Assembly (NCBI GenBank): GCA_947258385.1
Contig: CAMYII010000116.1
Span: forward strand, 3,984 to 67,983
Direction: 5' to 3'
Source of the DNA: Acidiferrobacterales bacterium
Lineage (GTDB): Bacteria > Pseudomonadota > Gammaproteobacteria > Acidiferrobacterales > SZUA-150
DNA length: 64,000 bases
A model generated the notes under the pieces. The model was given only the letters and a program-made list of their open reading frames with translations, made no database searches and had not been told where the DNA came from. The position numbers and the translations under genes were made by a program. Below, in pieces: positions 10,006 to 25,320 of this stretch. How positions within the stretch are numbered: position 1 is the first letter of the stretch; each line of letters starts with the position of its first letter.

Positions 10006-10921
10006 ATGGCTCAACCCGATTGCTACAGTATCCGGCGCCTGGCCCCGTTCCTGGGCATGACCGAGGTGATCGACACCGGCGAGGCCCGCGCCGTGAGCGT
10101 CGATGGCCTGAACTGGCAGATCCAGGTGCGCTGCCAAGGCGCACGCCGCCAAATGGGGGCGGCTCGATCAGCGTGAGCCGCTCTGGCGCTACGCCCGCGT
10201 CGGGGCCTGGTCGCCATCAGAAGGGCTGCGCCGGCTGCCGCTCGATCCGGCCCTCGACACCCAGGACATAGAGCGCCGCGCGCAGGCGCTGCTGGGCACG
10301 CTCGCGAGCAAACGCAGGCAGGTCCCGTTTCCGCCGCGGGACCGCATCGAATGGTGGCTGCTGGACGCGGCGGACAAGCGCCCGCTCGCACTGCTGGCGA
10401 GCGCGGTTGACGAGAGGTCGTTACCGCAGACCCCCACAGGTACGGAATGGATCCCGATGCGACCGGACGAGACCAGCCCCGTCCCAGGCCGGGATCACCG
10501 CCTGCATCCCCAGGCCCTGACCGCGCTGGTGGGGCGCGCGGCCGGCAAACCGGCGAGCGCCCAATGGTTCCGGCGCATCGAGAACGGGGACGGTCTGGGC
10601 CTGACCGGCGTGCACCTCGAGCCGGTGCTGCGGGGCAGGGAGCTGCCGCGCGCGTCGTTTCCGGTGCTGCTGCTGCGCGAAGACTGGGAAAATCCCGCCG
10701 AGCGTGCACTGATCCAGGATTTTTTCAACTGGCAGGCGCCGTGGTTGCTGACCCTGCCCGCGCTGTCCCCGAGCCTGCGCGACCGGCTCGAGCATGCCGC
10801 CTGTGCGCGGCCGCTGGCCGTCGATGCGGTCCACCGGTTCTACCCGCGGATTTTGAACCCGGACCTGATCAATCAAGCGCTAATCGAGGCGGCCCTGCGT
10901 CGATCCGCTTCGGAGCGCTGA
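10006..10921 (+). pseudogene. hypothetical ~300-aa protein split over two frames
   Basis: The frame starting at ATG 10006 (MAQPDCYSIRRL..) stops at 10174-10176. A second frame is open from 10112 to 10921, has no ATG before 10457, and reads as continuous protein (..KWGRLDQREPLWRYARVGAWSPSEGLRRLPLD..). The 10112-10176 overlap contains a G5 run. Confidence 0.45.
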
Positions 10922-10991
10922 ACCGTAGCATGGGGCCGCTTTCGTGTCCCTCACTCCAAACGATAATGAGATTGCGACCAAACTTGTTTTC

Positions 10992-11020
10992 TTGACAGGT
11001 CTTTGTACTACTGCGATAGT
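10992..11020 (+). promoter_or_regulatory. sigma-70-like promoter of the blaI-like gene (TTGACA-17 nt-GATAGT)
   Basis: A perfect -35 TTGACA lies at 10992-10997. A 4/6 -10 lies at 11015-11020 and overlaps the palindromic operator. Confidence 0.4.
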
Positions 11021-11028
11021 AACAAAAC
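11005..11028. promoter_or_regulatory. palindromic operator-like site 1 (GTACTA-N6-TAGTAA)
   Basis: An inverted repeat TACTA/TAGTA. About 19-20 of 24 positions are identical to a second copy at 12415-12438 (TACTACnnnGATAGTAACnAAAC). Confidence 0.55.
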
Positions 11029-11092
11029 CGTCACAAAACCGTCCCACCCGCGGCGTTCAACCGCCCGAGCACCGTGGAGCGCAACCGCACAC

Positions 11093-11482
11093 ATGGAAAA
11101 CAGCCCCGACCGTTTGGGTGATCTCGAACTGGCGATCATGAATGTGCTCTGGCGTGCCGACGGCCCACTCGAGGTCAAAGCGGTCGCGGCGCGACTGGGG
11201 CGACAGCGGGCCTATACCACGGTCATGACCACGCTGAGCCGATTGCACAAGAAGGGCTATCTGACACAGCAAAAGCACGGACGGGCGTTCGCCTACAGCC
11301 CGCGTGTCAGCCAGAAGACGATTCTCAAGAAAACGCTCTCACGCGTCGCCGCCACCCTGTTCAACGGTGATCTCCAGGAGTTGGTGCCACATCTGCTGGG
11401 CATCGACCGGCCACTCAGCGACGCGGAGCGCCGAAAACTGCAGGAGCTCGCCCTCAGCATCAAGGATCGCGATCATGACTAA
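11093..11482 (+). CDS. BlaI/MecI/CopY-family winged-helix repressor
   Basis: ..LELAIMNVLW..GPLEVKAV..AYTTVMTTLSRLHKKGYL..FAYSP.. is typical of Penicillinase_R-type repressors. The start is set at ATG 11093. Confidence 0.85.
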   Translation: MENSPDRLGDLELAIMNVLWRADGPLEVKAVAARLGRQRAYTTVMTTLSRLHKKGYLTQQKHGRAFAYSPRVSQKTILKKTLSRVAATLFNGDLQELVPHLLGIDRPLSDAERRKLQELALSIKDRDHD

Positions 11483-12365
11483 TCAGATCCTGGGCTTTCT
11501 GGTGGGCGCCGCAGTGATCACGGCGCTGTGGTCCGTGCTCGCCTGGGCGCTGGTGAAACTGTTCCGCATCCATTCACCGGCGGGTCGATTTGTCATTTTT
11601 CTGGCGCCGCTGCTGGCCGCCTTCGTCGTCAGGCTGCGCCTGAATCCGGGGGCGATGCTCCCGGTCCTGGTGCTGTGCGTGGGCGTCGCCGTGGCCTTGC
11701 TGGCCAGAGACCTGCTGCGTTGCCGGGCGCTGCGCAGACGCATAGAGGCCGAGGCCCGACCAGCGCCGGCAATCCAGGAACTCGTGGATGAACTCGCCCG
11801 GTCCTTCAAGATGCGCGCCCCAACAGCGCTGACCTGGAACCAGGGCCAGCTGGGGCCGTTCACGGGGGGGATACGCAGACCTTACGTCGTACTGACCACG
11901 GAATTGCTTTCCACCCTGGAACCCGATGAGCTCCGTGTGCTGCTGGCGCATGAGCTGGCGCATGTCCGGCGCCGGGACGCCTTATGGAAATGGCTGTTGC
12001 TGTTTCTGCGACATCTATCGTTCCTGAACCCCGCGGTCCATTGGCCCTATCGTTGGCTCAATCTGGAGATGGAACGCAGCTGTGACGAAGCCGCAAGCGC
12101 AATCATCCGCAAACCCGGCGCGCTCGCCCGCGCGCTGCTGAAAGTGGAGAGCGTCATCGCAAAACGAGGCGACAGCTGTGCACCGCGCCGGACCGAGTTC
12201 CTTGCCCACGCGGAATCGCACCTGGCGGCGCGCATTCACTCGCTCGCGACGACAGCGCCCACCCACACGGATTGGCTGACGCTGCTCAAGGTGCCCGCCG
12301 TCTTTCTGATCTTCTTCACGATCTGCCTTCAACCCGCACAAATCTGGCTCAAATTCTTCAATTAG
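11475..12365 (+). CDS. M56-family (BlaR1/MecR1-like) membrane metalloprotease transducer without a penicillin-binding sensor domain
   Basis: HExxH (LLAHELAHVRRRD) after N-terminal TM helices. The ATG at 11475 overlaps the blaI-like stop (11480-11482). At about 296 aa it is too short to carry a C-terminal PBP-type sensor. Confidence 0.8.
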   Translation: MTNQILGFLVGAAVITALWSVLAWALVKLFRIHSPAGRFVIFLAPLLAAFVVRLRLNPGAMLPVLVLCVGVAVALLARDLLRCRALRRRIEAEARPAPAIQELVDELARSFKMRAPTALTWNQGQLGPFTGGIRRPYVVLTTELLSTLEPDELRVLLAHELAHVRRRDALWKWLLLFLRHLSFLNPAVHWPYRWLNLEMERSCDEAASAIIRKPGALARALLKVESVIAKRGDSCAPRRTEFLAHAESHLAARIHSLATTAPTHTDWLTLLKVPAVFLIFFTICLQPAQIWLKFFN

Positions 12366-12414
12366 TTCAAGCATATAGCAAACACTCGGCCACACCGGGC
12401 TACGGAGACTTGAA

Positions 12415-12438
12415 TTACTACCAGGATAGTAACTAAAC
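12415..12438. promoter_or_regulatory. palindromic operator-like site 2 (TTACTA-N6-TAGTAA)
   Basis: A perfect 6-bp inverted repeat with a 6-bp spacer. It lies about 70 bp upstream of the MBL gene at the edge of an AT-rich block and is a near-copy of site 1. Confidence 0.55.
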
Positions 12439-12506
12439 TACGTTTTTATAAAATACTTCTATATATACATTATAATTTTTTATAATCTACTAGAGGAAGG
12501 AAAACG

Positions 12507-13541
12507 ATGAGGAACCATCACAACAATGCCTTACCCCTTACCGCGGCGGCCCTGCCGCTACTCACACACGCCCACCGGCATGTTGCCCGACTCATGTCGC
12601 TGGTCCTATGCGGACTCGTGCTCGGGCTGACGTCGCCCGGGAATGCCGCCCATGCGGGAGAACTGTCCGTCACCGTGTTGGGCAGTGGCGGCCCGATGGC
12701 GCTGGTCGACCGGGCCTCGGCCGGGTATCTGATAGATATCGACGGCGTGCCGCGGATCTTCATGGACGCCGGCGGGGGCACCCTGGTCAGATTGGGTCAG
12801 GGCCGCATATTCAATCTTGAGCGCGTGGATTTGTGGCTGCTCACCCATCTGCACATCGATCATGTCTCGGAATTCCCCGCCATCGTGAAATCCATGTATT
12901 ACCTGCGCCGGGCCTATAACGTAAGGACACCGTTGACGATCATCGGACCCGAGGCCTGGGGGAAATTTCCAAGCACCACGAAGTTCGTGGCCGATCACTT
13001 CAATGGGGCCGACGGGACCTATGCCTATCTGCATGATTTTCTGAACACCGTGTACAGCCCGGACATGAAGCTCGAGACCATCAATGTGCCTTACGACTAT
13101 GAAACGGTGCGAACGCCCGAGCTGGCTTTTGACAAAGACGGTGTGCGCGTGTCGACCATCCCGGTCATGCATGGACCGCGCGAATCGCAGACCCCCTCGG
13201 TCGCGTTCCGCGTCGACTATGACGGCAAGTCCATTACCTACTCGGGCGATTTGAATTCCGACAGCGGCAACCTGCTGACCCTGGCCATGGGCACGGATAT
13301 CCTTATTTACGATACCGCTCTGGGCCCCGCGCAGCGGTTTGATCCACCGGACCTGTTTCACTCCCTGCCCGCCGAGATCGGACAGACCGCTGAGGCGGCC
13401 GGGGTGAAAAAGCTGGTACTGTCTCACTTCATGCCGCCCTATACCGATCAAAAAATCGAGCGGATCGTCTCGCGGGTCAAGGAACACTATTCGGGAGAGG
13501 TGATCGTGGCCCACGATCTGCTTTCAATCCCCGTCCAGTAA
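12507..13541 (+). CDS. secreted MBL-fold metallo-hydrolase
   Basis: HxHxDH (THLHIDHVSE), an N-terminal hydrophobic signal (..LVLCGLVLGLTSPGNAAHA) and the SD GAGGAAGGA before ATG 12507. Confidence 0.75.
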   Translation: MRNHHNNALPLTAAALPLLTHAHRHVARLMSLVLCGLVLGLTSPGNAAHAGELSVTVLGSGGPMALVDRASAGYLIDIDGVPRIFMDAGGGTLVRLGQGRIFNLERVDLWLLTHLHIDHVSEFPAIVKSMYYLRRAYNVRTPLTIIGPEAWGKFPSTTKFVADHFNGADGTYAYLHDFLNTVYSPDMKLETINVPYDYETVRTPELAFDKDGVRVSTIPVMHGPRESQTPSVAFRVDYDGKSITYSGDLNSDSGNLLTLAMGTDILIYDTALGPAQRFDPPDLFHSLPAEIGQTAEAAGVKKLVLSHFMPPYTDQKIERIVSRVKEHYSGEVIVAHDLLSIPVQ

Positions 13542-13563
13542 GACGTTTGCGGTCACCGGTTTT

Positions 13564-13587
13564 GATGGGGGAGCTTCGCTCCCCATC
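13564..13587 (+). terminator. stem-loop downstream of the MBL gene
   Basis: GATGGGG(G)AGC-TTC-GCTCCCCATC forms a stem with one bulge. No T-run follows, so it is weak as an intrinsic terminator. Confidence 0.3.
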
Positions 13588-13939
13588 ATGCCACCCGGGA
13601 TTTCGATTCCCCGCTGTTCAGAAAAGCGACTTCGCCGAAGACCGTCGCTCGGACCCGGATGCTCGCAGCAAGCCGACATTAACCGTTGCAAGTAGGTCGC
13701 CGGCCAGGTCGCCTAGACCGCCGAAGGAGGGCTTTTTTGCCTGAGTTTGGACACATCCGCTACCCAAAGAGACACATACATTTAATGGGGGTATACTGTC
13801 CGCCGGGGTGGGGTCATCGACTGAGTACCGTGCTACTCGAATCCCCGCTCAGAAAACGCTCTTCTACTTGGACAGTAAACGGCCCGGCCCGCGCCACGAT
13901 GGCAGGGACGCGCCGCAATGAATCAGGAGGATTGGGGCA

Positions 13940-14833
13940 ATGTGGGAGGAGCTGAACAGTGACGTCAATGAAGACACCGAAAAATTCCTGATATCGCAAC
14001 AAAGACTCGAAGAATCGTACGCGCGATGCGCGAGCGCGGAGCTCTATCGCGAGATTGACCGCCCAAATGTCAGTTTGAATGGCGAGGCGCTTCAACGGCT
14101 GCTGGCCGGGCATGCCTCGCTGATCGCCTACGCGCATCTTTTGTTCGCCGACACGCACCGGTTTTTCCCGGATCCGCGACAGGTATTACTGCTGACGGAC
14201 GCCAACGCCTGTGTCCTTGACCTCTACTCACCGTCCAGAATCCTTGAGGCCGCCAGCTCCCGATGCGGGCTCTGCGTGGGGGTATCACTGGGTGAAAGCA
14301 GCTGTGGCACCAACGCCATTGCGCTGGCGCTGCGCCATCGCGAAGTTGCCGTCCTGCAAGGACAGCAGCATTTCTGTCGCCTGTTCCACGATTGTTGTAC
14401 GGTCGCCGCCCCGGTGCTGTCGCTGCAGGGGCGCCCCATCGCCTGTGTCGGTATCGGTTATCCCTATAACTCGCCGCTGGCGGAGAAGCCCGCCCTCATC
14501 CGATGCCTCGCCCAGAAGCTGGGGCACTTTGCCGATGCGGACATACCCTGCCCCAGCGCGGCACGTGCGTATGGTGAGTCCAGCGAAAAGGACGGAAACT
14601 ACTCCGGGGTAGCATTGACCTCGCGCCAGCGTCAGGTACTGCTCTCCTTCGCCAAGGGCTTGAGCTACAAGCAGATCGCGAGAAAACTGGGCATCAGCTC
14701 GACCAAGACCGTGGAGGAGCATCTGGATGCCGTGCGCAAGAAGCTGGGCGTCGAGTGCCGCCGGGAATGCATCCAACGGGCGACCGAGCTTGGGCTGTTA
14801 ACCGGCGGCTCAAACCACGTACCATCCCACTGA
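13940..14833 (+). CDS. LuxR/FixJ-type HTH regulator with an AcoR-like GAF sensory domain
   Basis: C-terminal LuxR HTH (LTSRQRQVLLSFAKGLSYKQIARKLGISSTKTVEEHL). The N-terminal block ..SCGTNAIALAL.. is as in AcoR-type GAF domains. AGGAGG lies before the ATG. Confidence 0.75.
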   Translation: MWEELNSDVNEDTEKFLISQQRLEESYARCASAELYREIDRPNVSLNGEALQRLLAGHASLIAYAHLLFADTHRFFPDPRQVLLLTDANACVLDLYSPSRILEAASSRCGLCVGVSLGESSCGTNAIALALRHREVAVLQGQQHFCRLFHDCCTVAAPVLSLQGRPIACVGIGYPYNSPLAEKPALIRCLAQKLGHFADADIPCPSAARAYGESSEKDGNYSGVALTSRQRQVLLSFAKGLSYKQIARKLGISSTKTVEEHLDAVRKKLGVECRRECIQRATELGLLTGGSNHVPSH

Positions 14834-14842
14834 ATACGTCTA

Positions 14843-14876
14843 CCCGCAGGGGCAATGTATTAATCGCCCCTGCGGG
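14843..14876. terminator. bidirectional hairpin between convergent genes
   Basis: A perfect 11-bp stem CCCGCAGGGGC/GCCCCTGCGGG with a 12-nt AT-rich loop. It lies between the luxR-like stop (14833) and the cytochrome stop (14904). Confidence 0.6.
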
Positions 14877-14903
14877 GGAACGATGCCGCTGGCGGCGCTT
14901 TCG

Positions 14904-16025
14904 TTAGGGCGCCGGCAGGCACTTGGCCTGGTATGCCGCCCGGATGTCCTTCTGGAGTTGCAGCATATCCGCCCACGGACCGTACTTGTGCTGCGCGGCC
15001 GTAAACACTTGCGGGTAGCTGGTATCCGGTTCGGCCGTGCTGCACGCCGCAATGTAGTCCATGTAATCCGATCTTGGGAAATAAATCGCGTAGCCGGCGT
15101 CGACCCGTTTCTTCATCCAGTTGGGCACGTCATCCGGCCCCACGCCCGACCAGTCGGACTCATGGTTGACAAAGACGGGTCGTTCCTCGGAGATAACATA
15201 AGACATTACATCCCAGGCATCCTCGTCACTCAACAGTGATTCCGGATTGGTGGCATCGGCACGTCCGTAGGGCATATTGCCTTTGACAAAGCGCACGCCC
15301 GTGCGCAGGCGATACATGCCGGCACCGTTATTGAAGGTGTCCGGTCCCCAGAGCGCCGGGAAGATAAAGGCCTGCGTATCCGGGTTCCACACGCCTTCAC
15401 CGTTATTGCCGTGGCAGGGCAGGCACTGTTTTTCGTAGAGCTGCCGGCCGCGCACCGGGTCGGCGGCGCGATCCATGTCGGGCAGGGCCTTGACGAAGCC
15501 CGTTCCCTCGACCAGCCTCCAGTCGTCGACCTGCATGCCGGTGACCAGCCAGTCAAAATAGGCAATGATGGATTGCATCTCGTAGCTGTTTTCCGGCAAC
15601 TGGCGGGAATCGATCGAGTTCATCGAACGCTGCATGCAACCGTTGATGCGCACCGGGACATTGCGGTACTCATTGGTGCGGCTGGAGAAGATGCCGGGAT
15701 CGGCATACTTCAAGGACACCACCGACCAGGGCCCCCCGTACGCAGCGGTCCCGTCATCCAGATGGCAGTTGGTGCAGGCCAGCTTGTTGCCGGTAATCGG
15801 CATCGCGCTCTCCGCCCCCAGATACTTGTAGGTTTCGGTCAGCAGCAGCTTGCCGTAACGGATCATGTCGCCTGCGGGCGTATTGGGAATGTCGGCCTCA
15901 TCGGGTGCAATCCAGGTGCCTGCAAACCCATCCTCCGGCGGCGGGGGGGGTTCCGGTTTTTTCGCCTGTGCCGTTACGGCCGTCACCAGTATTAAAACAA
16001 ATAAAGTAATGACATATCTGTTCAT
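14904..16025 (-). CDS. TsdA-like dihaem cytochrome c with a C-terminal extension
   Basis: Signal peptide MNRYVITLFVLILVTAVTAQA. Two CxxCH motifs (CTNCH, CLPCH). RINGC lies about 40 residues after haem 1. The block PALWGPDTFNNGAGM resembles thiosulfate dehydrogenase TsdA. The start is set at ATG 16025. Confidence 0.7.
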   Translation of the reverse strand: MNRYVITLFVLILVTAVTAQAKKPEPPPPPEDGFAGTWIAPDEADIPNTPAGDMIRYGKLLLTETYKYLGAESAMPITGNKLACTNCHLDDGTAAYGGPWSVVSLKYADPGIFSSRTNEYRNVPVRINGCMQRSMNSIDSRQLPENSYEMQSIIAYFDWLVTGMQVDDWRLVEGTGFVKALPDMDRAADPVRGRQLYEKQCLPCHGNNGEGVWNPDTQAFIFPALWGPDTFNNGAGMYRLRTGVRFVKGNMPYGRADATNPESLLSDEDAWDVMSYVISEERPVFVNHESDWSGVGPDDVPNWMKKRVDAGYAIYFPRSDYMDYIAACSTAEPDTSYPQVFTAAQHKYGPWADMLQLQKDIRAAYQAKCLPAP

Positions 16026-16064
16026 GGCTAAAATCCTTTTTGAGGAAAGCAACGTACCCATCGT

Positions 16065-18044: not shown

Positions 18045-18466
18045 CGAAGCTGTCTCCTTCCTGGAATTCCACTTTGTTCACGCGATCGACTCGCATGAAC
18101 ACTGCTCAACCGTGAACGCCACAGGCGCTTAAGGGAAAGTAAAGTGAGTTGCGCCCTTTAATGACTTTAACGAATGACATAGGAATACACCGCAAGACGA
18201 TGTCTGTAAATGATATAAATCAATCGCTGCGCGCAATCACAACATTAACAACGTTGCGATGTTATATGTGTGTCCGCGGACCCCGGTAAAGAACGGGGTA
18301 CCTCTGATATCGATACCTATGTCTTTGGCGGGTTGCCGTTCACAGGCAGCCATGATTGACTGTAAACCACACCGCGTTTGTGCCTTTGACATCCAATCCT
18401 TTGGATGGCCCACAAGGCGTTTGTGTTGACGCGACATTGCACCCTAAGCTCCAGGGAGGTTGAGCC

Positions 18467-20311
18467 ATGTTGACCCATCGAGCATCGACTGAAACTAATC
18501 CTTGTCGGTTTTTTTCCACCATTGCTTTTAAACTGTCTCTGTCGCACGAAGGCCGTTTAGTGACTAGCGTCGCCCTAGTGCGCAGCCTGATGTACCTTGT
18601 CGTTCTCGCCGCCATCACATTCGCGGTTAGTGCCAATGCGAATCAAGGTGCAACCGGTAATGATGATGATGACGATGATCAGGATAAAGAAATATCGCTG
18701 ACCCTGATCCAGATCGGTGACCTGCACGGTCATATGGTCCCGCGTCCGAATCTGCGAATCGACAGTGTAGATGGTGTCAAGGAAGGAGGGCTTGCCCGCA
18801 TCGCCGGCAAGATCAAACAGATTCGCGCAAGCGATCCGGATGCCTTGCTGTTCAACGTCGGCGACACCATCCAGGGCGGCGCCGAGGCGCTCCATACCAG
18901 TGGCCAGGCCATGGTCGATGTGGTGGACACCTTCGGCGTCGACGGCTTCGCGCCCGGCAACTGGGAATATCTCTACGGCGCGGAGCGCTTTGTCGAACTT
19001 TTTGGCAGCGGACGCTGGGGCTCGGTGGCGGCCAATCTTTATTACGAAGACACTGGCGAACGGGTGCTACCGCCGTATCTGATTAAGGAGGTCAAGGGTA
19101 TCAAGGTCGGTTACATGGGATTGACGACTGACCGTGGCCTGCCGGCGATTCCCAACGCTACCGAGGGTCTGGTCTTCACCGGCGACGCGGCGGAAATACC
19201 GGTGCTCATCGACAAGCTGCGCAACGAAGAGAGGGTCGATGTGGTGATCCTGTTGTCCGAGTTCGGGCTGGCCAAGAATGTCCTGCTGGCGGAACGCTAC
19301 CCGGGTATGGATGTGATCCTATCCTCCGACATGCACGAGATCACGCCGCGGGCGGTCGTCACCTCGACGGGCACCCTGGTCTCCGAGGTGGGACAGGACG
19401 GCACCCGCATGGGCAAAGTGGTGTTGCGCCTGGTCGACAAACAGATCGTGAAGCGCAAGTACAAATTCATAAACATAGACGCTACGATCGAATCGGACCC
19501 CGAGACCGCCAAGCTGGTACGCAAGATCCGCAAGGCCTTTGTTACAGGCTCTGGGTTCCAGTCGCATATCAATCCGATCAGCGGCGCCATCCTGAATACG
19601 CCCATTAATACCGTAGTAGGGATCGCGGAGGTCGGCCTGCATCGCTCCAACTTCACCGACCACCCGCTGCCCGGTGTGATCGAGGGCACCTCGCATGATT
19701 TTCTGACCGACGCCTTCCGCGATCAGGGCATGTCGGACTTCGCCTCCATCCGCGGCTTCCGTTACGGCACGCACGTGCGGCCCGGGCCAATCAGACTGGA
19801 GGATCTCTACCATTACCTGCCCACCGGCGCACAGATCGCCCGCGGCACCATCCCGGGTCTGCAATTGAAAACTGTCATGGAGAACACCATCAACGGCTCG
19901 CTCAACAAGGATCCGTTCAAGTGGGGCGGCGGCTGGGTGTTCGGCTTCAGCGGTATCACCTTCGATCTGGACCTGACCGCACCCAGAGGCTATCGCGCGC
20001 AGAACATCATGATCAAACGCCATGATACGGGTCTATGGGAACCGCTCGATGTGGAGGCCTTTTACACGGTAGCCGGCTTTTTCTTCGACGACGATCCCAA
20101 CCGTGTCGGCGCCTTTCGTAACGCCAAAGACATCACCGTGCTGAATGCGGAGGACGGTGGGCTCCTGGATGGGACCGAGGTGGTCGTCGATCACCTCGAG
20201 ACCCACACCGCGAATCCGCAGACGGGACGCATTCGTTTATTGCAGCCGTTACCGCCACCGGTCTACGGCAACCCCGAGATTCAACCGCTGTTGGGCGCCA
20301 CCGCGGACTGA
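18467..20311 (+). CDS. SoxB/5'-nucleotidase-like metallophosphoesterase, paralogue 1
   Basis: Metallophosphatase motifs IGDLHGH and VGDTIQGG, a variant GNWEY, and a 5'-nucleotidase-type C-domain. GGGAGG lies 7 nt before ATG 18467. The signal-like segment (LMYLVVLAAITFAVSANA) starts only at residue ~41, so the true start may be GTG 18578 or ATG 18590. Confidence 0.75.
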   Translation: MLTHRASTETNPCRFFSTIAFKLSLSHEGRLVTSVALVRSLMYLVVLAAITFAVSANANQGATGNDDDDDDQDKEISLTLIQIGDLHGHMVPRPNLRIDSVDGVKEGGLARIAGKIKQIRASDPDALLFNVGDTIQGGAEALHTSGQAMVDVVDTFGVDGFAPGNWEYLYGAERFVELFGSGRWGSVAANLYYEDTGERVLPPYLIKEVKGIKVGYMGLTTDRGLPAIPNATEGLVFTGDAAEIPVLIDKLRNEERVDVVILLSEFGLAKNVLLAERYPGMDVILSSDMHEITPRAVVTSTGTLVSEVGQDGTRMGKVVLRLVDKQIVKRKYKFINIDATIESDPETAKLVRKIRKAFVTGSGFQSHINPISGAILNTPINTVVGIAEVGLHRSNFTDHPLPGVIEGTSHDFLTDAFRDQGMSDFASIRGFRYGTHVRPGPIRLEDLYHYLPTGAQIARGTIPGLQLKTVMENTINGSLNKDPFKWGGGWVFGFSGITFDLDLTAPRGYRAQNIMIKRHDTGLWEPLDVEAFYTVAGFFFDDDPNRVGAFRNAKDITVLNAEDGGLLDGTEVVVDHLETHTANPQTGRIRLLQPLPPPVYGNPEIQPLLGATAD

Positions 20312-20451
20312 GACGGGCATCACGGGCGGCTCACGAGGCGGCACAAGCGACGCCGATCGTGAGCCGACCCGAGCCAGGGAGCTCATGCGACCAGGCAAGG
20401 TTGAGCTGATAACACGTCCGATAAAGCCGTATCAGCCAAGGAGGTTCAGAC

Positions 20452-22197
20452 ATGACGGTCATCCTACCCATCACAACGCGCCTCACTTCGCTCGTATTGG
20501 CCGCATTGGCCTGCTTTGCCATCCCCAGTGCCACGGCCACTGAAAGTAACGATACGACAACGTTAGTCATGATGCTGATTGGCGATACCCACGGCCACAT
20601 GCTGCCGCGGTCCAATCTGCGACGGGATTCTCTGGATGGCGTTAAGGAAGGGGGCTATGCCCGGTTGATGACCAAGGTCAAAGAGATTCGCCAACACGAT
20701 CCGGAGGCGCTGCTGTTCATGTCCGGCGATACGCTGCAGGGTGGGGTCGAGGCGCTTTACACAAAGGGTCAGAGCGCCATCGATGTGTTCGACACCTTCG
20801 GCATCAACGCCTTCGCCCCGGGCAACTGGGACTTTCTTTATGGGCGCGAGCGCTTTGTCGAAGTCTTCGGCGCTGACCGCTGGGGCATTGTCTGCGCGAA
20901 CCTGTACTACGAGGAAGGCTTCGAGAACCCCGAGACGCGACAGCGGGTAGTGCCCCCCTATCGCATACTGGACGTCAAAGGCATCAAGATCGGGGTCATC
21001 GGCATGACCGCCGAGCGCGGCATTCTGGCGGTACCCGGCGCCAATGATGGCTTCATTCTGACCAAGGCCCAGGACGAGTTGCCCGCCTTGATCGCCGAGC
21101 TGCGTCCCCAGGTCGATGTGCTGATGCTGCTCTCGGAGCTCGGACTGGCCAAGAACTCATTGCTCGCCGAGCGCTTTCCGGACTTCGATCTGGTGTTCTC
21201 TTCGGACATGCATGAAGAGGTACCGAACCCCATCATCATCGGCGATAAAGGCATCATCGTCACCGAGATGGGTCACGACGGGACCGGCATGATCAAAATC
21301 AGTCTTCGCCTTGACGACAAACAGATCGTGGACAAGCACTACAGCTGGCTCGACATTAATAATCTAATCATGCCGGATCCCGATGTCGTGCAGCTCATAA
21401 AACGCATCAGCGCGGAATTCGATAAAGGCGCCGCCTTCAAGACCCATATTAATCCGCTCAGCGGCTATGTACTGACAACCCCGGCCAATACCGTGGTCGG
21501 CCGTAACGCCACCCGCCTGTACCGCTACGATTTCACCGACGACCCGCGCCCCGGGGTCATCGAAGGGGCCTCGCATGACTTTCTGACTGATGCCTTCCGC
21601 GAGCGGGCGGCGGCAGACTTCGCCATGATCGTGGGTTTCCGTTACGGCACCCACTTGCGTCAGGGGCCGATCCGCTTGCGCGACCTGTACCACTATCTGC
21701 CGGCCGGCGCCCAGATCGCCAAGGGCACGGTCAGCGGTCAGCAGATCAAGAATGTGCTGGAAAACAACACCGACGGTGCGCTCAACAAGGACCCCTTCAA
21801 ATGGACCGGCGGCTGGCTGTTCGGCTACAGCGGCGTCCAGTTCGATGTGGACTTGACGGTCCCCAAAGGCAGCCGCGCGCAGAATGTGATGATCAAACAC
21901 CAGGCGAGCGGGATGTGGAAATCCCTGGAGCTTGGGGCGAGCTACACCGTGGCAGGGTTCTGGTTCCCGCTGCGCCCGAACCGCATCGGTGTCTTTCCCA
22001 TCGCCGATCCGTCCACCGTCATCCGCCTGACGCTCCCGGACGGCTCACCCAAGGATGCCACGGAGGTGGTCGTTGATTATCTCCAGACCACGACCGCCAA
22101 TCCGGACATGGGCCGCATCCGCTTACTGACACCGTTGCCGCCACCGGTATTCGGCAACCCCGAGGTCCAGCCCCTGCGGGGCGCCACGCTGGAGTGA
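20452..22197 (+). CDS. SoxB/5'-nucleotidase-like metallophosphoesterase, paralogue 2
   Basis: AAGGAGG SD and a Sec signal (..LAALACFAIPSATA). The motifs IGDTHGH, SGDTLQGG and GNWDF are collinear with paralogue 1 over the full length. Confidence 0.8.
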   Translation: MTVILPITTRLTSLVLAALACFAIPSATATESNDTTTLVMMLIGDTHGHMLPRSNLRRDSLDGVKEGGYARLMTKVKEIRQHDPEALLFMSGDTLQGGVEALYTKGQSAIDVFDTFGINAFAPGNWDFLYGRERFVEVFGADRWGIVCANLYYEEGFENPETRQRVVPPYRILDVKGIKIGVIGMTAERGILAVPGANDGFILTKAQDELPALIAELRPQVDVLMLLSELGLAKNSLLAERFPDFDLVFSSDMHEEVPNPIIIGDKGIIVTEMGHDGTGMIKISLRLDDKQIVDKHYSWLDINNLIMPDPDVVQLIKRISAEFDKGAAFKTHINPLSGYVLTTPANTVVGRNATRLYRYDFTDDPRPGVIEGASHDFLTDAFRERAAADFAMIVGFRYGTHLRQGPIRLRDLYHYLPAGAQIAKGTVSGQQIKNVLENNTDGALNKDPFKWTGGWLFGYSGVQFDVDLTVPKGSRAQNVMIKHQASGMWKSLELGASYTVAGFWFPLRPNRIGVFPIADPSTVIRLTLPDGSPKDATEVVVDYLQTTTANPDMGRIRLLTPLPPPVFGNPEVQPLRGATLE

Positions 22198-22269
22198 CAC
22201 GCGGCGACGCGCAATGTTTAAGCCGGCCCGCCTTAAGGCGGTAGACCCGTTTCCACGGAGGAGAGCACC

Positions 22270-25200
22270 ATGACACGTCTTAGCAGAGCCTTCATCACCG
22301 CACTCGGCCTCGTTGTCCTGCTCATGTCAACGCCGCCGCTGACCCTGGCCAACGTTAGCGAGCGCCCCACCTGCTCGCCTGAGCTGTTGCAGTCGCTGGA
22401 CATGTTCAACTGCATCGCGAGACAGGAGCTGCCGCCGATCGAGTTCGGGCCACCCGACACCTTTCTCGATCGCCGCGCGCGCGAGGCGTTTCCACAAAAC
22501 TGGACTCAGCTCGGATTCGATCAGCGCCACAACCCGGTGTTTCCCGTACCGGACACGGCCCCGCCATTCCTGCGCTTCGGCACCTTCTGGGCCGCAAACA
22601 TTACTGGACTGGACTTTCTACGCCTGGGCCGGGCCCTTGACACCATCGGTAACCCGGAGGCCTGGGGCTCCAAGACCGCCCAGTACCTGGGAAACGTCAT
22701 GGGGGTATCGGCCGCCCAGGGCATCGTCTATGTCCAGCTCGGCCGCCACGAGATCTGGGCCCTGGACGGCGCCAGCGGCAGAGCAATCTGGCAGGCCGAT
22801 CTCACAACATCGGCCGGTATGGGTGAGACCCTGGTCGAGGAGATCAACGGCCGGCTGATGGTGTTCGTGCCCGTCGGCGATGCCGCCTTCACCGTGCAGA
22901 ATGCCATCGACTTCGCCAACGGCCAAGCCCACGACCGCGGCGCCAATTTCTCAGGCGTGTATGCCTTTGACGGCGTCACCGGCGAGCGGCGCTGGCGCTT
23001 CGCCACCAAGGGCGCGTCACGCCCGACGCCCGTCTATCGCAACGGCAAGCTTTACCTGGCGACTGGCGGCGGTGAGTTCTTCGTGCTCAACGCAGAAGAC
23101 GGCAAACAACTGGGCAGCTTCACCAACCCCGGCGAGGGCTTTCCCGGCCTGGCCTCGCTGAACTGGTTCGAGACCGCGGACGACCGGATGTTTCTGATCT
23201 ACGGGACCATCCGCCCGCGGAGAATCCTGGCGGTCGATGCGACGGATCCGAGTGCACCGGTGTTGGGCTGGCAATACACGCCGGCCAACGCCACCGCCAA
23301 TGCCCCGGGTGATACCCCGGTCGCGGTCGACCCGGAGTTGGGCATGGTGTTCACCACCGTGTTCAGCAGTGTCTCAGGGCAATTTACAACCAATGTGCTG
23401 GCGCTGGACGCGACCACCGGCGAGGTACGCTGGAATGATTTCGCCGGCGGCATCGACAGCCCGCCCGGTTACAAGGGCAGCGTGCCCATGGTACACGCGG
23501 GTGGGCTATACGTGGGCAACACCAGCAACGGCAGGTATCGCGCCTATGACGCGCTCACCGGCACCTTGCGCTGGGAGGCCGATCTGAGCGAGGCGGACGA
23601 CCCGCCGGGGCTGATCCACCGGCCGCGGGCCGCCGCCGTATTCCACGACGGGAAGCTGATCGTCGCCGAGGGCCGCGATATCCACACCTTCGACCCCGAG
23701 ACCGGCATTGAGCTCAATCGCTTCGAGACGCCCGGCACCTTCGCCGTCTGGGGCATCAACCAGCCGGTCATCATCGGCCAGCTGATGATCCTGAGCTCCA
23801 TCTCCGGTTGGGTGTTCGCGGCACCGGTCGATGTCATCACCAACTTTCCCGGCTTCGAGGGCGGCACAGCGCTCCCGCTCCCGGGTGGGGATACGCCGCC
23901 ACCCCCGCAGCTACCCGAGTTTTTCAATCCGCTGGCCCTGCCCACTCGCTCGGAGGCCAAGCAGTTCCCGAGCACCTGGCTGGCCTACGCCGGCGGCCAG
24001 GACCATAACGGTGTGGCGAACCAGGGTCCGAGCGGCGTCGCCTGGCAGACCGCGCTCAATAGTGCCCTATCGCTGGACGCGCCGCCGCTGGACGAGTTCA
24101 TCTACGGCACAGAGATCGCCACCCACATGACCCACCTGGCGTTCGGGGTCGGCACCGGCGTGTCGCCGGCCAACGGTATTCTCTATGTCGGCAGCGACCG
24201 TTATACGATCAATGCCCTGAACGCGTTGACCGGGGAGCCGATCTGGCGCTTCCGCACCATTAACGCCAACTTCGGTCAGCCGCTGGTGACAGCGGATACG
24301 GTCATCGTCAGTGGCGGTGATCCCTGGATGAACCTCGGCAATACGGGAAGGTTCCGGTCCAACTCGCCGGCCACGGTCATCGGCGACAGCTTCCCCACGG
24401 TGCATGGGCTCGACCCCAAAACCGGGCTCGAGAAGTGGACTTTCTACAGCGACGGCGGCACCAGCGCCATGACCCCGCTGTATCATGACGGCAAGCTGTA
24501 CTGGGTCAACGGCGAGGCCAAGGTCTGGGCCATCAATGCCGAGACCGGCGAACCGGTGTCTCCCTTCATGGACCCGGACGGGCTGCCGGTCCTGTCGCTG
24601 GGCGGCTTCAACGCCATCTCCTCGGCCAACGTATACAACGAGCCGGGCGGACCCGATCTCATGGTCGTCGGCACCGCCATGCCCAATCGGATCTGGGCCA
24701 TCGATCTGGCCACGGCCGAGGTGGCCTGGAGCTACGACCTAGCGGGAGTGAATACGTATGTGACGGGATTTGCCACCGTGTCGCCGACGTTGGAGCAGAA
24801 TCGCGGGCTGGTGATCAGCACGGTGCTGACCGATGCGGATCCGTTGACGAACACCGTGACCGTGCTCGCGTTCGCGCTCGACGGCAAGACCGGCGCGCCG
24901 GTCTGGACCCAAGCCCTGGGCACGGGGTCTATCCCGACCGGCTTCACCGGTCCCGTGCCGCTGATCGCAAAGAGCAGCGTTTACCTGCACAACCCGCTGA
25001 CTCAAACCATGACCGCGCTAAATGCGCTAACCGGTGCCGTAAAATGGCAGATGCCGATCTCCACACCGGAGGGCAAGTTCAGTTGGGGTCCGGGCGTGGT
25101 CGTGGGCAACAAACTGATCGTGCCCGCCGGGCCCGATCTGTACACCTTCGACGCCAAGACCGGTGCCGTACTCGCCCAGCGGCGGATCGGTGGGTCGTTT

Positions 25201-25320
25201 ACCTATAACAACCCGACGGTGGCCGGCAAAACACTTTATATCGGCAATTCCTGGGGCTGGGTGTCAGCCATCCCGCTTGGCACGGAAACCAACGACGACG
25301 ACGACGAGAAAGACGATTGA
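22270..25320 (+). CDS. secreted 1016-aa protein of PQQ/BamB-type beta-propeller repeats (probable double propeller)
   Basis: GGAGGAG SD and the signal peptide MTRLSRAFITALGLVVLLMSTPPLTLA. At least 13 repeats of the type (A/N)xD..(T/S)Gxx.W occur (IWALDGASGRAIWQ, YAFDGVTGERRWRF, LALDATTGEVRWND, YDALTGTLRWEA, LNALTGEPIWRF, LDPKTGLEKWTF, FALDGKTGAPVWTQ, LNALTGAVKWQM ...). Confidence 0.75.
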   Translation: MTRLSRAFITALGLVVLLMSTPPLTLANVSERPTCSPELLQSLDMFNCIARQELPPIEFGPPDTFLDRRAREAFPQNWTQLGFDQRHNPVFPVPDTAPPFLRFGTFWAANITGLDFLRLGRALDTIGNPEAWGSKTAQYLGNVMGVSAAQGIVYVQLGRHEIWALDGASGRAIWQADLTTSAGMGETLVEEINGRLMVFVPVGDAAFTVQNAIDFANGQAHDRGANFSGVYAFDGVTGERRWRFATKGASRPTPVYRNGKLYLATGGGEFFVLNAEDGKQLGSFTNPGEGFPGLASLNWFETADDRMFLIYGTIRPRRILAVDATDPSAPVLGWQYTPANATANAPGDTPVAVDPELGMVFTTVFSSVSGQFTTNVLALDATTGEVRWNDFAGGIDSPPGYKGSVPMVHAGGLYVGNTSNGRYRAYDALTGTLRWEADLSEADDPPGLIHRPRAAAVFHDGKLIVAEGRDIHTFDPETGIELNRFETPGTFAVWGINQPVIIGQLMILSSISGWVFAAPVDVITNFPGFEGGTALPLPGGDTPPPPQLPEFFNPLALPTRSEAKQFPSTWLAYAGGQDHNGVANQGPSGVAWQTALNSALSLDAPPLDEFIYGTEIATHMTHLAFGVGTGVSPANGILYVGSDRYTINALNALTGEPIWRFRTINANFGQPLVTADTVIVSGGDPWMNLGNTGRFRSNSPATVIGDSFPTVHGLDPKTGLEKWTFYSDGGTSAMTPLYHDGKLYWVNGEAKVWAINAETGEPVSPFMDPDGLPVLSLGGFNAISSANVYNEPGGPDLMVVGTAMPNRIWAIDLATAEVAWSYDLAGVNTYVTGFATVSPTLEQNRGLVISTVLTDADPLTNTVTVLAFALDGKTGAPVWTQALGTGSIPTGFTGPVPLIAKSSVYLHNPLTQTMTALNALTGAVKWQMPISTPEGKFSWGPGVVVGNKLIVPAGPDLYTFDAKTGAVLAQRRIGGSFTYNNPTVAGKTLYIGNSWGWVSAIPLGTETNDDDDEKDD

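What the first reader, a model, noticed from the sequence alone, without database searches (positions are those of the whole stretch)
10992..13541. BlaI/BlaR1-like repressor-protease pair apparently controlling a secreted MBL-fold hydrolase through a shared palindromic operator
A BlaI/MecI/CopY-type repressor gene is translationally coupled to an M56 (BlaR1-like) membrane metalloprotease. That protease has HExxH but, at about 296 aa, no penicillin-binding sensor domain.

A near-identical 24-bp element TACTACnnnGATAGTAACnAAAC, built around the inverted repeat (T)TACTA-N6-TAGTA(A), occurs twice. One copy overlaps the promoter of the repressor gene (11005-11028, TTGACA-17-GATAGT). The other lies 70 bp upstream of the next gene (12415-12438), which encodes a signal-peptide-bearing HxHxDH metallo-beta-lactamase-fold hydrolase.

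The layout mirrors blaI-blaR1/blaZ logic, but with an unknown signal and an MBL-fold effector.
Basis: partly seen in the sequence, partly recalled or inferred. Interest (0 to 1): 0.65.

Follow-up and report, generated by a model that had tools for sequence, protein, structure and literature searches.

The report
Sensor-less BlaI/M56 switch controlling exported hydrolase
A repressor gene and a membrane-protease gene of the BlaI/BlaR1 family sit next to an exported metallo-hydrolase gene and share a conserved DNA operator with it; this is a real but fairly ordinary member of a widespread class of "sensor-less" BlaIR switches, and neither its signal nor its enzyme substrate is known.

Summary
The window encodes three adjacent genes:
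- a Penicillinase_R repressor (11093-11482);
- a 296-aa M56 protease (11475-12365) that overlaps the repressor gene by 8 nt, has HELAH and ExxxD motifs and four TM helices, and has no sensor domain;
- a signal-peptide-bearing MBL-fold protein (12507-13541).

The shared element occurs exactly twice in 64 kb (11006-11028 and 12416-12438), against 0 expected.

Comparative genomics supports the interpretation. In ten related loci the 16-bp dyad TACTAC-N4-GTAGTA lies just after the M56 stop, in front of the next gene. In eight of the ten it also lies in the blaI promoter beside a TTGACA -35. The same dyad precedes BlaI-like genes in about 13 distant phyla-spanning M56 loci, and it matches the canonical mec/bla operator (TACANNTGTA core). 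It is therefore the family's own operator.

Three caveats apply:
- Sensor-less M56/BlaI pairs are the majority of the family, and several have been characterised (PetRP, mycobacterial BlaIR, CenIR, PvmSR).
- The MBL belongs to the ElaC/RNase Z-PNGM-1-arylsulfatase branch, not to the true beta-lactamases.
- The downstream target varies among relatives: MBL, SoxB/5'-nucleotidase-like hydrolase, beta-propeller or aminotransferase.

Verdict: a new member of a known kind, of moderate interest.

The parts
10992..11020 (+). Predicted sigma-70 promoter of the blaI-M56 operon (TTGACA-17-GATAGT)
   Evidence: 10 of 12 consensus matches, with TG before the -10. The -10 hexamer lies inside operator O1.
11006..11021 (.). 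Operator O1: 16-bp dyad TACTACTGCGATAGTA. The element shared within the window extends to 11028.
   Evidence: Equivalent sites lie next to a TTGACA -35 in front of blaI in L006, L007, L085/L089, L088, L172 and L173, and in about 13 distant BlaI loci.
11093..11482 (+). BlaI/MecI/CopY-family winged-helix repressor, 129 aa, no cysteine
   Evidence: PF03965 E=1.2e-27. The closest solved structure is M. tuberculosis Rv1846c, 2g9w. The recognition helix RAYTTVMTTLSRL is almost invariant in 7 orthologues.
11475..12365 (+). Sensor-less M56 membrane zinc protease, 296 aa, 4 TM helices, overlapping blaI by 8 nt
   Evidence: PF05569 E=1.7e-25. HELAH, D168 and E200xxxD204 are invariant, and C284 is invariant in 21 sequences. 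The subfamily has about 18 clusters, separated from other M56 proteins by a sharp gap.
12410..12439 (+). Candidate MBL promoter (TTGAAT-18-TAAACT) enclosing O2
   Evidence: Read directly from the sequence. It was not reported by the consensus scan. A -35-like T-rich hexamer 0-8 nt upstream of the dyad recurs in the orthologous O2 sites. This part is inferred.
12416..12431 (.). Operator O2: 16-bp dyad TACTACCAGGATAGTA. The shared element extends to 12438.
   Evidence: A dyad with at most 2 mismatches lies in the M56-to-next-gene spacer in all 10 related loci.
12507..13541 (+). Exported MBL-fold binuclear metallo-hydrolase (ElaC/RNase Z-PNGM-1-AtsA branch), 344 aa
   Evidence: PF12706. H114, H116, D118, H119, H222, D248 and H307 are invariant in 39 homologues. 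The AF2 model has pLDDT 83, and its best PDB folds are 8gyg arylsulfatase, 1zkp ElaC homologue, PNGM-1 and RNase Z at about 20% identity. The close clade (57-94% identity) is linked to blaI-M56; the ~41% clade is not.
13940..14833 (+). Context: LuxR/GerE-type regulator conserved in the island
   Evidence: PF00196. Homologues at 48-53% identity are present in L005 and L088. GerE-domain genes are also called in L172 and L173.
18467..22197 (+). Context: two paralogous SoxB/5'-nucleotidase-family periplasmic hydrolases (18467-20311 and 20452-22197)
   Evidence: Metallophos plus 5_nucleotid_C. The best NCBIfam hit is TIGR04486 SoxB, far below its cut-off. No operator lies in front of them in this window.
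22270..25320 (+). Context: 1016-aa PQQ_2/BamB-like beta-propeller protein conserved in the island
   Evidence: Homologues at 48-61% identity occur in L005, L006, L007, L087, L088 and L089. PQQ_2 proteins of ~1010-1017 aa are also called in L172, L173 and L174.

Best explanation
This is a BlaIR-family proteolytic switch of the sensor-less type.

The 129-aa BlaI-like dimer binds the dyad TACTAC-N4-(G/A)TAGTA at two places. O1 overlaps the -10 of its own promoter. O2 lies between a -35-like and a -10-like hexamer in front of the MBL gene. Binding at these sites keeps blaI-M56 and the exported MBL-fold hydrolase repressed.

On an as yet unknown cue, the four-TM M56 zinc protease cleaves the repressor on the cytoplasmic side. 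The protease is made from the same, translationally coupled mRNA. Cleavage derepresses both transcription units.

The unit belongs to a conserved island of chemolithoautotroph genomes. The island carries SoxB/5'-nucleotidase-like hydrolases, a 1016-aa beta-propeller, multihaem cytochromes, a LuxR-type regulator and, in relatives, HupE. In relatives the same operator also fronts SoxB-like hydrolases or other genes.

Shown here: the gene families, the operator and its conserved positions, and the linkage. Inferred: DNA binding, repression rather than activation, proteolysis, and the signal.
For: 1. Families and catalytic motifs.
2. The motif occurs twice in the window against 0 expected. Across 8 related loci (159 kb) there are 12 sites with at most 1 mismatch against 0.24 expected, all of them intergenic.
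3. A dyad lies in the M56-to-next-gene spacer in 10 of 10 loci and in the blaI promoter in 8 of 10, including loci found from the M56 side only.
4. The same dyad lies 20-140 bp upstream of BlaI-like ORFs in about 13 loci from Planctomycetota, Acidobacteriota, Verrucomicrobiota and others. The motif therefore belongs to BlaI and not to another island regulator.
5. The published BlaI/MecI operators have the core TACANNTGTA, and the mecA half-operator is ATAAGACTACAT (PMC1935004). Mirroring that half-site gives ACTACATATGTAGT, which equals the core of the L006 site TACTACATATGTAGTA.
6. The recognition helix is nearly invariant among orthologues.
7. The blaI stop and M56 start overlap in all loci.
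8. Precedents exist for sensor-less pairs that work by regulated proteolysis or repression of a nearby gene: PetRP (10.1101/2020.07.31.226407) and CenIR with cdr_0474 215 bp downstream (PMC13492132).
Against: - There is no experimental datum for this system.
- In the window the inner core is degenerate (TACT..GATA instead of TACA..TGTA).
- L005 has no recognisable O1, and the L088 MBL has no operator in front of it.
- The best -10 hexamers near the MBL (two perfect TATAAT at 12471-76 and 12481-86) lie downstream of O2. The site could therefore sit upstream of the real promoter and act positively, as PetR does at petJ.
- The S. aureus N101-F102 cleavage site is not conserved; the equivalent region here is LVPHLLG.
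- The M56 protein exposes almost nothing to the periplasm, so how it would sense anything is unexplained.
Confidence: 0.75

Rival explanations
1. Same proteins and sites, but at the MBL promoter the BlaI-like protein acts as an activator or has a dual role, as PetR does at petJ. In this reading the real MBL promoter is the AT-rich TATAAT region downstream of O2, and O2 is an upstream site.
For: Two perfect TATAAT hexamers lie at 12471-76 and 12481-86, 40-55 bp downstream of O2. The consensus scan did not report the TTGAAT-18-TAAACT promoter. [quoted passage not shown]
Against: In the orthologous O2 sites a -35-like T-rich hexamer lies 0-8 nt upstream of the dyad, and the right half-site coincides with a -10 position. 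This is the geometry of promoter occlusion. The AT-rich patch is not conserved in L005. Family members are repressors in nearly all studied cases.
Confidence: 0.12
2. The palindrome is the site of a different regulator encoded in the island (the LuxR/GerE protein at 13940-14833, or an OmpR-type response regulator in relatives). BlaI/M56 would then be merely a co-regulated neighbour.
For: The 7-2-7 layout TACTACT-GC-GATAGTA resembles NarL-type heptamer pairs; this is recalled from memory and was not tested. A GerE-type gene is present in the window, L005, L088, L172 and L173.
Against: The dyad is present in Thiogranum loci and in L085/L089 and L174, where no full GerE gene is seen in the flanks. 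It is absent from L087, which lacks blaI. It precedes blaI genes in unrelated phyla that have no such island. It matches the published BlaI/MecI operator (PMC1935004).
Confidence: 0.04
3. It is a genuine beta-lactam resistance module. The MBL-fold enzyme would be a beta-lactamase induced via BlaI/M56 in response to beta-lactam damage sensed indirectly.
For: The layout mirrors blaI-blaR1/blaZ. PNGM-1, one of the closest structures, has weak B3-type beta-lactamase activity alongside tRNase Z activity; that activity is from my own knowledge.
Against: There is no penicillin-binding domain. The MBL is about 20% identical to PNGM-1 and equally close to arylsulfatase, ElaC and RNase Z. All NCBIfam hits are far below their cut-offs. 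In relatives the same operator position controls SoxB-like hydrolases, a beta-propeller or an aminotransferase. The characterised sensor-less systems do not affect beta-lactam resistance (PMC13492132; 10.64898/2026.08.03.742534).
Confidence: 0.04
4. The two copies are a chance or selfish repeat with no regulatory role.
For: Only two copies are present in the window. The 3' extension is shared only within this genome.
Against: None of 100 shuffles gave any match. The position is conserved in 10 loci that are otherwise diverged to 37-50% protein identity. There are no other copies in 64 kb.
Confidence: 0.01

Closest known systems
BlaI-BlaR1/blaZ and MecI-MecR1/mecA (Staphylococcus aureus, Bacillus licheniformis)
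   Same: Both have a winged-helix Penicillinase_R repressor and an M56 HExxH membrane protease encoded in one operon. Both show autoregulation plus control of an adjacent gene for an exported hydrolase, through dyad operators with a TAC-N4-GTA core. The mec half-operator core ACTACAT matches the sites found here (PMC1935004).
   Different: The protease here has no C-terminal penicillin-binding sensor domain and ends just after TM4. The N101-F102 cleavage motif is not conserved. The target is an ElaC/PNGM-1/AtsA-type MBL fold, not a class A beta-lactamase or a PBP. The host is a Gram-negative chemolithoautotroph.
PetR/PetP of Synechocystis sp. PCC 6803
   Same: Both pair a BlaI/CopY-family regulator with a sensor-less M48/M56 protease. 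Both have a small regulon of a few nearby or specific genes. In PetRP, regulated degradation of the regulator is the demonstrated mechanism (10.1101/2020.07.31.226407).
   Different: The PetR operator is GAC-N5-GTC, whereas here it is TACTAC-N4-GTAGTA. PetP's proposed copper ligands (two conserved Met in the TM2-TM3 loop) are not conserved here. The regulons differ: plastocyanin and cytochrome c6 there, exported hydrolases here.
Mycobacterial BlaI/BlaR (Rv1846c/Rv1845c; M. abscessus orthologues)
   Same: Rv1846c (2g9w) is the closest solved structure to the repressor. The partner BlaR also lacks the sensor domain (PMC13492132; 10.64898/2026.08.03.742534).
   Different: The mycobacterial regulon includes blaC and ATP-synthase-linked genes. 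The system here is from a different phylum, and no overlap with that regulon was seen.
CenIR (Clostridioides difficile) and PvmSR (Pseudomonas aeruginosa)
   Same: [quoted passage not shown] CenIR strongly represses a gene for an exported protein located 215 bp downstream of the operon (PMC13492132). That is the same architecture as blaI-M56-O2-MBL.
   Different: CenR has a ~125-residue unstructured extracellular tail, whereas the protease here has essentially none. The target genes are unrelated. PvmR carries an extra N-terminal domain.
CopY copper repressors
   Same: They share the Penicillinase_R fold and operator type. The best NCBIfam hit is TIGR02698, but far below its cut-off.
   Different: The repressor here has no CxCx4CxC motif and no cysteine at all. 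It is paired with a protease instead of being metal-released.
PNGM-1, RNase Z/ElaC/ZiPD and the Pseudoalteromonas MBL-fold arylsulfatase (for the effector)
   Same: The MBL shares the alpha-beta/beta-alpha MBL fold and a complete HxHxDH...H...D...H binuclear site. These are the best sequence and structure matches.
   Different: Identity is only about 20%. The protein here is exported, unlike RNase Z. It scores far below the RNase Z equivalog cut-offs (81 bits against 293). Its substrate is unknown.

Membership tests
BlaI/MecI/CopY (Penicillinase_R) repressors | N-terminal winged-helix domain plus C-terminal helical dimerisation domain matching PF03965 over its full length | tested here: met
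   residues 8-119 match profile positions 1-112 of 115, 96.9 bits against a cut-off of 22.6. PDB hits are 2g9w, BlaI and MecI.
BlaI/MecI/CopY (Penicillinase_R) repressors | Dyad operator with a TACANNTGTA-type core in its own promoter (autoregulation) | tested here: met
   The dyad TACTAC-N4-GTAGTA (inner TAC-N4-GTA) overlaps the blaI promoter in the window and in 7 further related loci. The canonical core is given in PMC1935004. In the window itself the inner positions are degenerate.
BlaI/MecI/CopY (Penicillinase_R) repressors | Inactivation by site-specific cleavage in the dimerisation domain (N101-F102 in S. aureus) | not testable with these tools
   The equivalent region, GDxxELVPHLLG, is conserved among orthologues but lacks the N-F pair.
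CopY copper sensors | C-terminal CxCx4CxC (or CxC) metal site | tested here: not met
   The repressor contains no cysteine. TIGR02698 scores 46.5 bits against a cut-off of 122.
M56 (BlaR1/MecR1-type) membrane metalloproteases | HExxH, Asp five residues after the second His, and ExxxD, located between TM3 and TM4 | tested here: met
   H159-E160-L-A-H163, D168 and E200-x3-D204 are invariant in 21 sequences. PF05569 scores 90 bits.
M56 (BlaR1/MecR1-type) membrane metalloproteases | Cognate blaI-like gene adjacent | tested here: met
   The overlapping upstream blaI is present in every locus.
Canonical beta-lactam sensor BlaR1/MecR1 | C-terminal extracellular penicillin-binding (transpeptidase-like) sensor domain | tested here: not met
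   The protein is 296 aa and ends about 10 residues after TM4. There is no PF00905 hit. NF000326 blaR1_generic scores 43.5 bits against a cut-off of 400 and covers only the protease part.
PetRP copper switch | GAC-N5-GTC operator and a conserved Met pair in the TM2-TM3 loop of the protease | tested here: not met
   The operator is different. Loop residues are variable; only R55 and L56 are conserved. The defining features are taken from 10.1101/2020.07.31.226407.
Metallo-beta-lactamase superfamily (fold and metal site) | HxHxDH plus distal His/Asp/His ligands | tested here: met
   H114, H116, D118, H119, H222, D248 and H307 are invariant in 39 homologues. The model has pLDDT 83.
True beta-lactamases of subclass B1/B2/B3 | Sequence or profile membership in a beta-lactamase family; beta-lactam hydrolysis | tested here: not met
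   No NCBIfam beta-lactamase model was hit. The best matches are phosphodiesterase, GntH and RNase Z models, and arylsulfatase, ElaC, PNGM-1 and RNase Z structures. Enzyme activity cannot be tested here.
RNase Z / ElaC | Equivalog-level profile score; cytoplasmic tRNA 3' processing enzyme | tested here: not met
   TIGR02651 scores 81 bits against a cut-off of 293. The protein carries an N-terminal export signal.

The most novel reading that the evidence does not exclude
The M56 protease of this subfamily is itself the sensor. Its single invariant residue outside the cytoplasmic domain is Cys284, at the periplasmic end of TM4 and followed by (Q/R/K)P. This cysteine would react with a periplasmic oxidant, reactive sulfur species or metal. 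That reaction would switch on an uncharacterised extracytoplasmic pathway shared horizontally by sulfur- and iron-oxidising chemolithoautotrophs (Thiogranum, other Gammaproteobacteria, Nitrospirota). The pathway would comprise ElaC-like MBL esterase, SoxB-like hydrolases, HupE, a giant beta-propeller and multihaem cytochromes. If so, this would be a thiol-based, domain-less mode of BlaR signalling tied to a new piece of sulfur or mineral metabolism.
Probability: 0.1. Interest if true: 0.6.

Novelty: new member of a known kind. Interest (0 to 1): 0.35.

Why it matters
BlaIR-type proteolytic switches are now recognised as a large, mostly uncharacterised class of envelope signalling systems. Only about 6% sense beta-lactams.

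This subfamily offers an unusually clean case for study:
- a minimal protease with no extracellular domain;
- a sharply defined 16-bp operator;
- a small, predictable regulon of exported metallo-hydrolases.

Working out its inducer would show how a domain-less M56 protease perceives a signal. It could also point to the function of a conserved island of unknown role (SoxB-like hydrolases, beta-propeller, cytochromes) in groundwater and sediment chemolithoautotrophs. It has no evident bearing on clinical beta-lactam resistance.

Tried and rejected
- Exact look-up of the window MBL in the assembly index found nothing.
- The genome-collection scan with an M56 alignment gave only three close genomes. 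The other 77 loci were distant M56 systems.
- The metagenome scan gave one further close locus, L089.
- I meant to use the distant loci as negative controls for the motif. Instead they showed that the same dyad is the general BlaI autoregulatory operator.
- I tested whether the broader (~41% identity) MBL clade is also linked to blaI/M56. It is not.
- I tested whether the '5'-nucleotidase' neighbours are SoxB. SoxB is the best NCBIfam hit but far below its cut-off, and PDB ranks a 5'-nucleotidase and SoxB about equally, so the question stays undecided.
- I looked for CopY-type or PetP-type metal ligands. None are conserved.
- I could not retrieve Sala et al. 2009 or Bonefont et al. 2024 to compare the mycobacterial operator. 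My recollection that it is a TAC..GTA dyad is unverified.
- Literature searches for the island (multihaem/nucleotidase/PQQ/Thiogranum) and for BlaI-controlled MBL-fold genes found nothing relevant.
- No intrinsic terminator was found between the M56 and MBL genes, so read-through co-transcription cannot be excluded.
Full report
**What is in the window**

Reading 10700-13800 and listing ORFs gives three co-directional genes.
- The first is at 11093-11482 (129 aa). It is a full-length Penicillinase_R (BlaI/MecI/CopY) repressor: PF03965, E=1.2e-27. Its closest solved relative is M. tuberculosis Rv1846c, 2g9w.
- The second is at 11475-12365 (296 aa). It is an M56 peptidase: PF05569, E=1.7e-25. It carries HELAH (159-163), D168 and E200xxxD204. 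It overlaps the repressor gene by 8 nt (ATGACTAA).
- Hydropathy gives the M56 protein four TM segments, and the chain ends about 10 residues after the last one. The only blaR1 model hit covers the protease part, at 43.5 bits against a cut-off of 400. It is therefore sensor-less.
- The third is at 12507-13541 (344 aa). It is an MBL-fold protein (PF12706) preceded by a good Shine-Dalgarno sequence. It has a long, non-conserved N-terminus containing a hydrophobic core and an AHA|GE site.

**The repeat**

TACTACNNNGATAGTAACNAAAC occurs at 11006-11028 and 12416-12438. It occurs nowhere else in 64 kb, even with three mismatches allowed. None of 100 dinucleotide-preserving shuffles gave any match. 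The first copy overlaps a strong promoter-like site, TTGACA-17-GATAGT at 10992-11020. The second is framed by TTGAAT and TAAACT.

**Related loci**

Homologues of the MBL fall into two groups:
- a tight clade at 57-94% identity, about 21 clusters;
- after a gap, a large clade at about 40% identity.

Contigs carrying close-clade members all carry a blaI-M56 pair. These are L001/L005 (an uncultured gammaproteobacterium), L003/L006 and L004/L007 (two Thiogranum MAGs), L085/L086, and L088. L087 does too, once the rest of its contig (L172) is read. Two members of the ~40% clade are not linked to blaI/M56.

The M56 protein defines a small subfamily of about 18 clusters (276-306 aa, 39-100% identity). 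A sharp gap separates it from all other M56 proteins: E-values jump from 1e-47 to 1e-12. Only three species genomes in the GTDB-based collection and one extra metagenome contig (L089) carry it.

Three loci were reached from the M56 side, which is unbiased with respect to the MBL. In these the gene immediately downstream varies:
- a Vgb-lyase/SGL-like beta-propeller (L172);
- a 667-aa SoxB/5'-nucleotidase-like hydrolase (L173);
- an aminotransferase (L174).

All loci belong to one conserved island. It carries SoxB/5'-nucleotidase-family hydrolases of three subtypes, a ~1016-aa PQQ_2 beta-propeller, multihaem cytochromes, a LuxR/GerE regulator and, in some loci, HupE/UreJ_2. In the window these genes lie at 13940-25320. 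A flavocytochrome c sulfide dehydrogenase at 26811-28112 points to a sulfur-oxidising host.

**The operator is conserved**

The core shared across loci is the 16-bp dyad TACTAC-N4-(G/A)TAGTA.
- In 159 kb of related loci there are 12 sites with at most 1 mismatch, against 0.24 expected. All are intergenic.
- With the three further loci, a dyad with at most 2 mismatches lies between the M56 stop and the next gene in 10 of 10 loci.
- A dyad also lies in front of blaI in 8 of 10 loci, usually a few nucleotides after a TTGACA -35.
- In Thiogranum and L088, further copies precede SoxB-like genes.
- In most O2 sites a T-rich, -35-like hexamer lies 0-8 nt upstream, so the right half-site falls at the -10 position. 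This is the geometry of promoter occlusion.

**The dyad belongs to BlaI**

I intended the about 160 distant M56 loci (1.6 Mb) as a background control. Instead they contain 18 sites with at most 1 mismatch, against about 2.4 expected. About 13 of these lie 20-140 bp upstream of a BlaI-like ORF, again just after TTGAC. These loci come from Planctomycetota, Acidobacteriota, Verrucomicrobiota and others.

The published BlaI/MecI operators have the central palindrome TACANNTGTA, and the mecA half-operator is ATAAGACTACAT (PMC1935004). Mirrored, that gives ACTACATATGTAGT, which is identical to the core of the Thiogranum site TACTACATATGTAGTA. The recognition helix RAYTTVMTTLSRL is almost invariant among the orthologues. 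Together these results make binding by the BlaI-like protein the only well-supported reading. They disfavour the LuxR-type or OmpR-type regulators of the island.

**The effector**

The MBL has a complete binuclear site: H114, H116, D118, H119, H222, D248 and H307 are invariant in 39 homologues.
- By sequence, its nearest solved relatives are an MBL-fold arylsulfatase (8gyg), PNGM-1, a Bacillus ElaC homologue, YhfI and RNase Z.
- By structure, the same set comes up using an AF2 model of pLDDT 83, at about 20% identity.
- NCBIfam hits (cyclic-nucleotide phosphodiesterase, GntH, RNase Z) are all far below their cut-offs.

It is therefore an exported phosphodiester- or sulfate-ester-type hydrolase of unknown substrate, not a recognisable beta-lactamase.

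**How it most likely works**

By homology, the repressor dimer occupies O1 and O2. The M56 protease, made from the same coupled mRNA, cleaves it on a cue. Cleavage releases both the operon and the hydrolase gene.

This mechanism is demonstrated for BlaIR/MecIR. For the sensor-less PetRP pair, degradation needs the protease and copper (10.1101/2020.07.31.226407). CenIR represses an exported-protein gene 215 bp downstream by about 500-fold (PMC13492132).

The signal here is unknown.
- The repressor has no cysteine, so a CopY-type metal site is excluded.
- The PetP-type methionines are not conserved.
- The only invariant residue outside the cytoplasmic domain and first loop is Cys284, near the periplasmic end of TM4. 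It is a candidate sensing residue, and this is speculative.

**Uncertainties**

- O1 is not recognisable in L005 or L174, and the L088 MBL lacks an operator.
- In the window, two perfect TATAAT hexamers lie downstream of O2. A positive or dual role at the MBL promoter, as for PetR at petJ, therefore cannot be excluded.

**Novelty**

A 2026 survey found that only about 6% of ~15,000 M56 proteins carry a penicillin-binding domain, and that 96% have a blaI-like neighbour (PMC13492132). Sensor-less systems have been studied in Synechocystis, mycobacteria, C. difficile and P. aeruginosa (10.64898/2026.08.03.742534).

The absence of a sensor domain and the blaZ-like layout are thus expected features of the family. 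What is new is limited to:
- this rare subfamily;
- its defined operator positions;
- its predicted regulon of exported MBL-fold and SoxB-like hydrolases within an uncharacterised chemolithoautotroph island.

I rate it a new member of a known kind, with moderate interest (0.35).

Noticed in passing
window 13940-25320 (and L005, L006, L007, L087, L088, L089, L172-L174): A conserved island is shared by Thiogranum MAGs, other Gammaproteobacteria and a contig whose M56 protein is labelled Nitrospirota. It holds a LuxR/GerE regulator, a dihaem cytochrome c (14904-16061, minus strand), a 659-aa multihaem cytochrome (16065-18044, minus strand), two SoxB/5'-nucleotidase-like paralogues and a 1016-aa PQQ_2 beta-propeller. 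Relatives add HupE/UreJ_2 and a 252-aa protein. Its function is unknown.
   Followed up: partly
L011, L012, L013, L015, L017, L021, L024, L026, L031, L036, L037, L047, L057 (sites listed): The dyad (T/A)NCTAC-N4-GTAGTA lies 20-140 bp upstream of BlaI-like ORFs, right after a TTGAC -35, in distant phyla. The mec-type operator thus appears to be a near-universal autoregulatory site of sensor-less BlaIR systems.
   Followed up: partly
window 12440-12500: A patch of about 75% A+T in a 62% G+C genome lies between O2 and the MBL Shine-Dalgarno sequence. It contains two perfect TATAAT hexamers (12471-12476 and 12481-12486). It could be the real MBL promoter or a UTR element.
   Followed up: no
window 11023-11044: A tandem 11-bp repeat, CAAAACCGTCA/CAAAACCGTCC, lies immediately 3' of operator O1, in the presumed 5' UTR of blaI.
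   Followed up: no
window 13862-13877: The weak dyad TTCTACTTGGACAGTA (3 mismatches) ends 63 bp upstream of the LuxR/GerE gene start. At this stringency about 32 chance hits are expected per 159 kb, so it may mean nothing.
   Followed up: no
L088 10975-10990 and 11148-11163; L173 10923-10938: In L088 the operator upstream of the 661-type SoxB-like gene is duplicated as part of a ~170-bp direct repeat. Each copy is followed by a GC-rich inverted repeat (CCCGGTAC...GTACCGGGG). A similar hairpin follows the L173 site.
   Followed up: no
M56 residue 284 (window about 12324-12326); alignment A5: Cys284, near the periplasmic end of TM4 and followed by (Q/R/K)P, is invariant in all 21 subfamily members. 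The short periplasmic loop is variable.
   Followed up: partly
L003 5855 versus 6001; L088 10057 versus 10123: Some called gene starts in the related contigs look wrong. The Thiogranum MBL probably starts at L003 5855 (AGGAAG Shine-Dalgarno, signal-like N-terminus). The L088 M56 probably starts upstream of the called start.
   Followed up: partly
L001 4533-4551: L005/L001 lacks a normal O1. Upstream of its blaI it has ATAGTAGCCTGCTAT, a palindrome with the half-sites in the opposite orientation.
   Followed up: no
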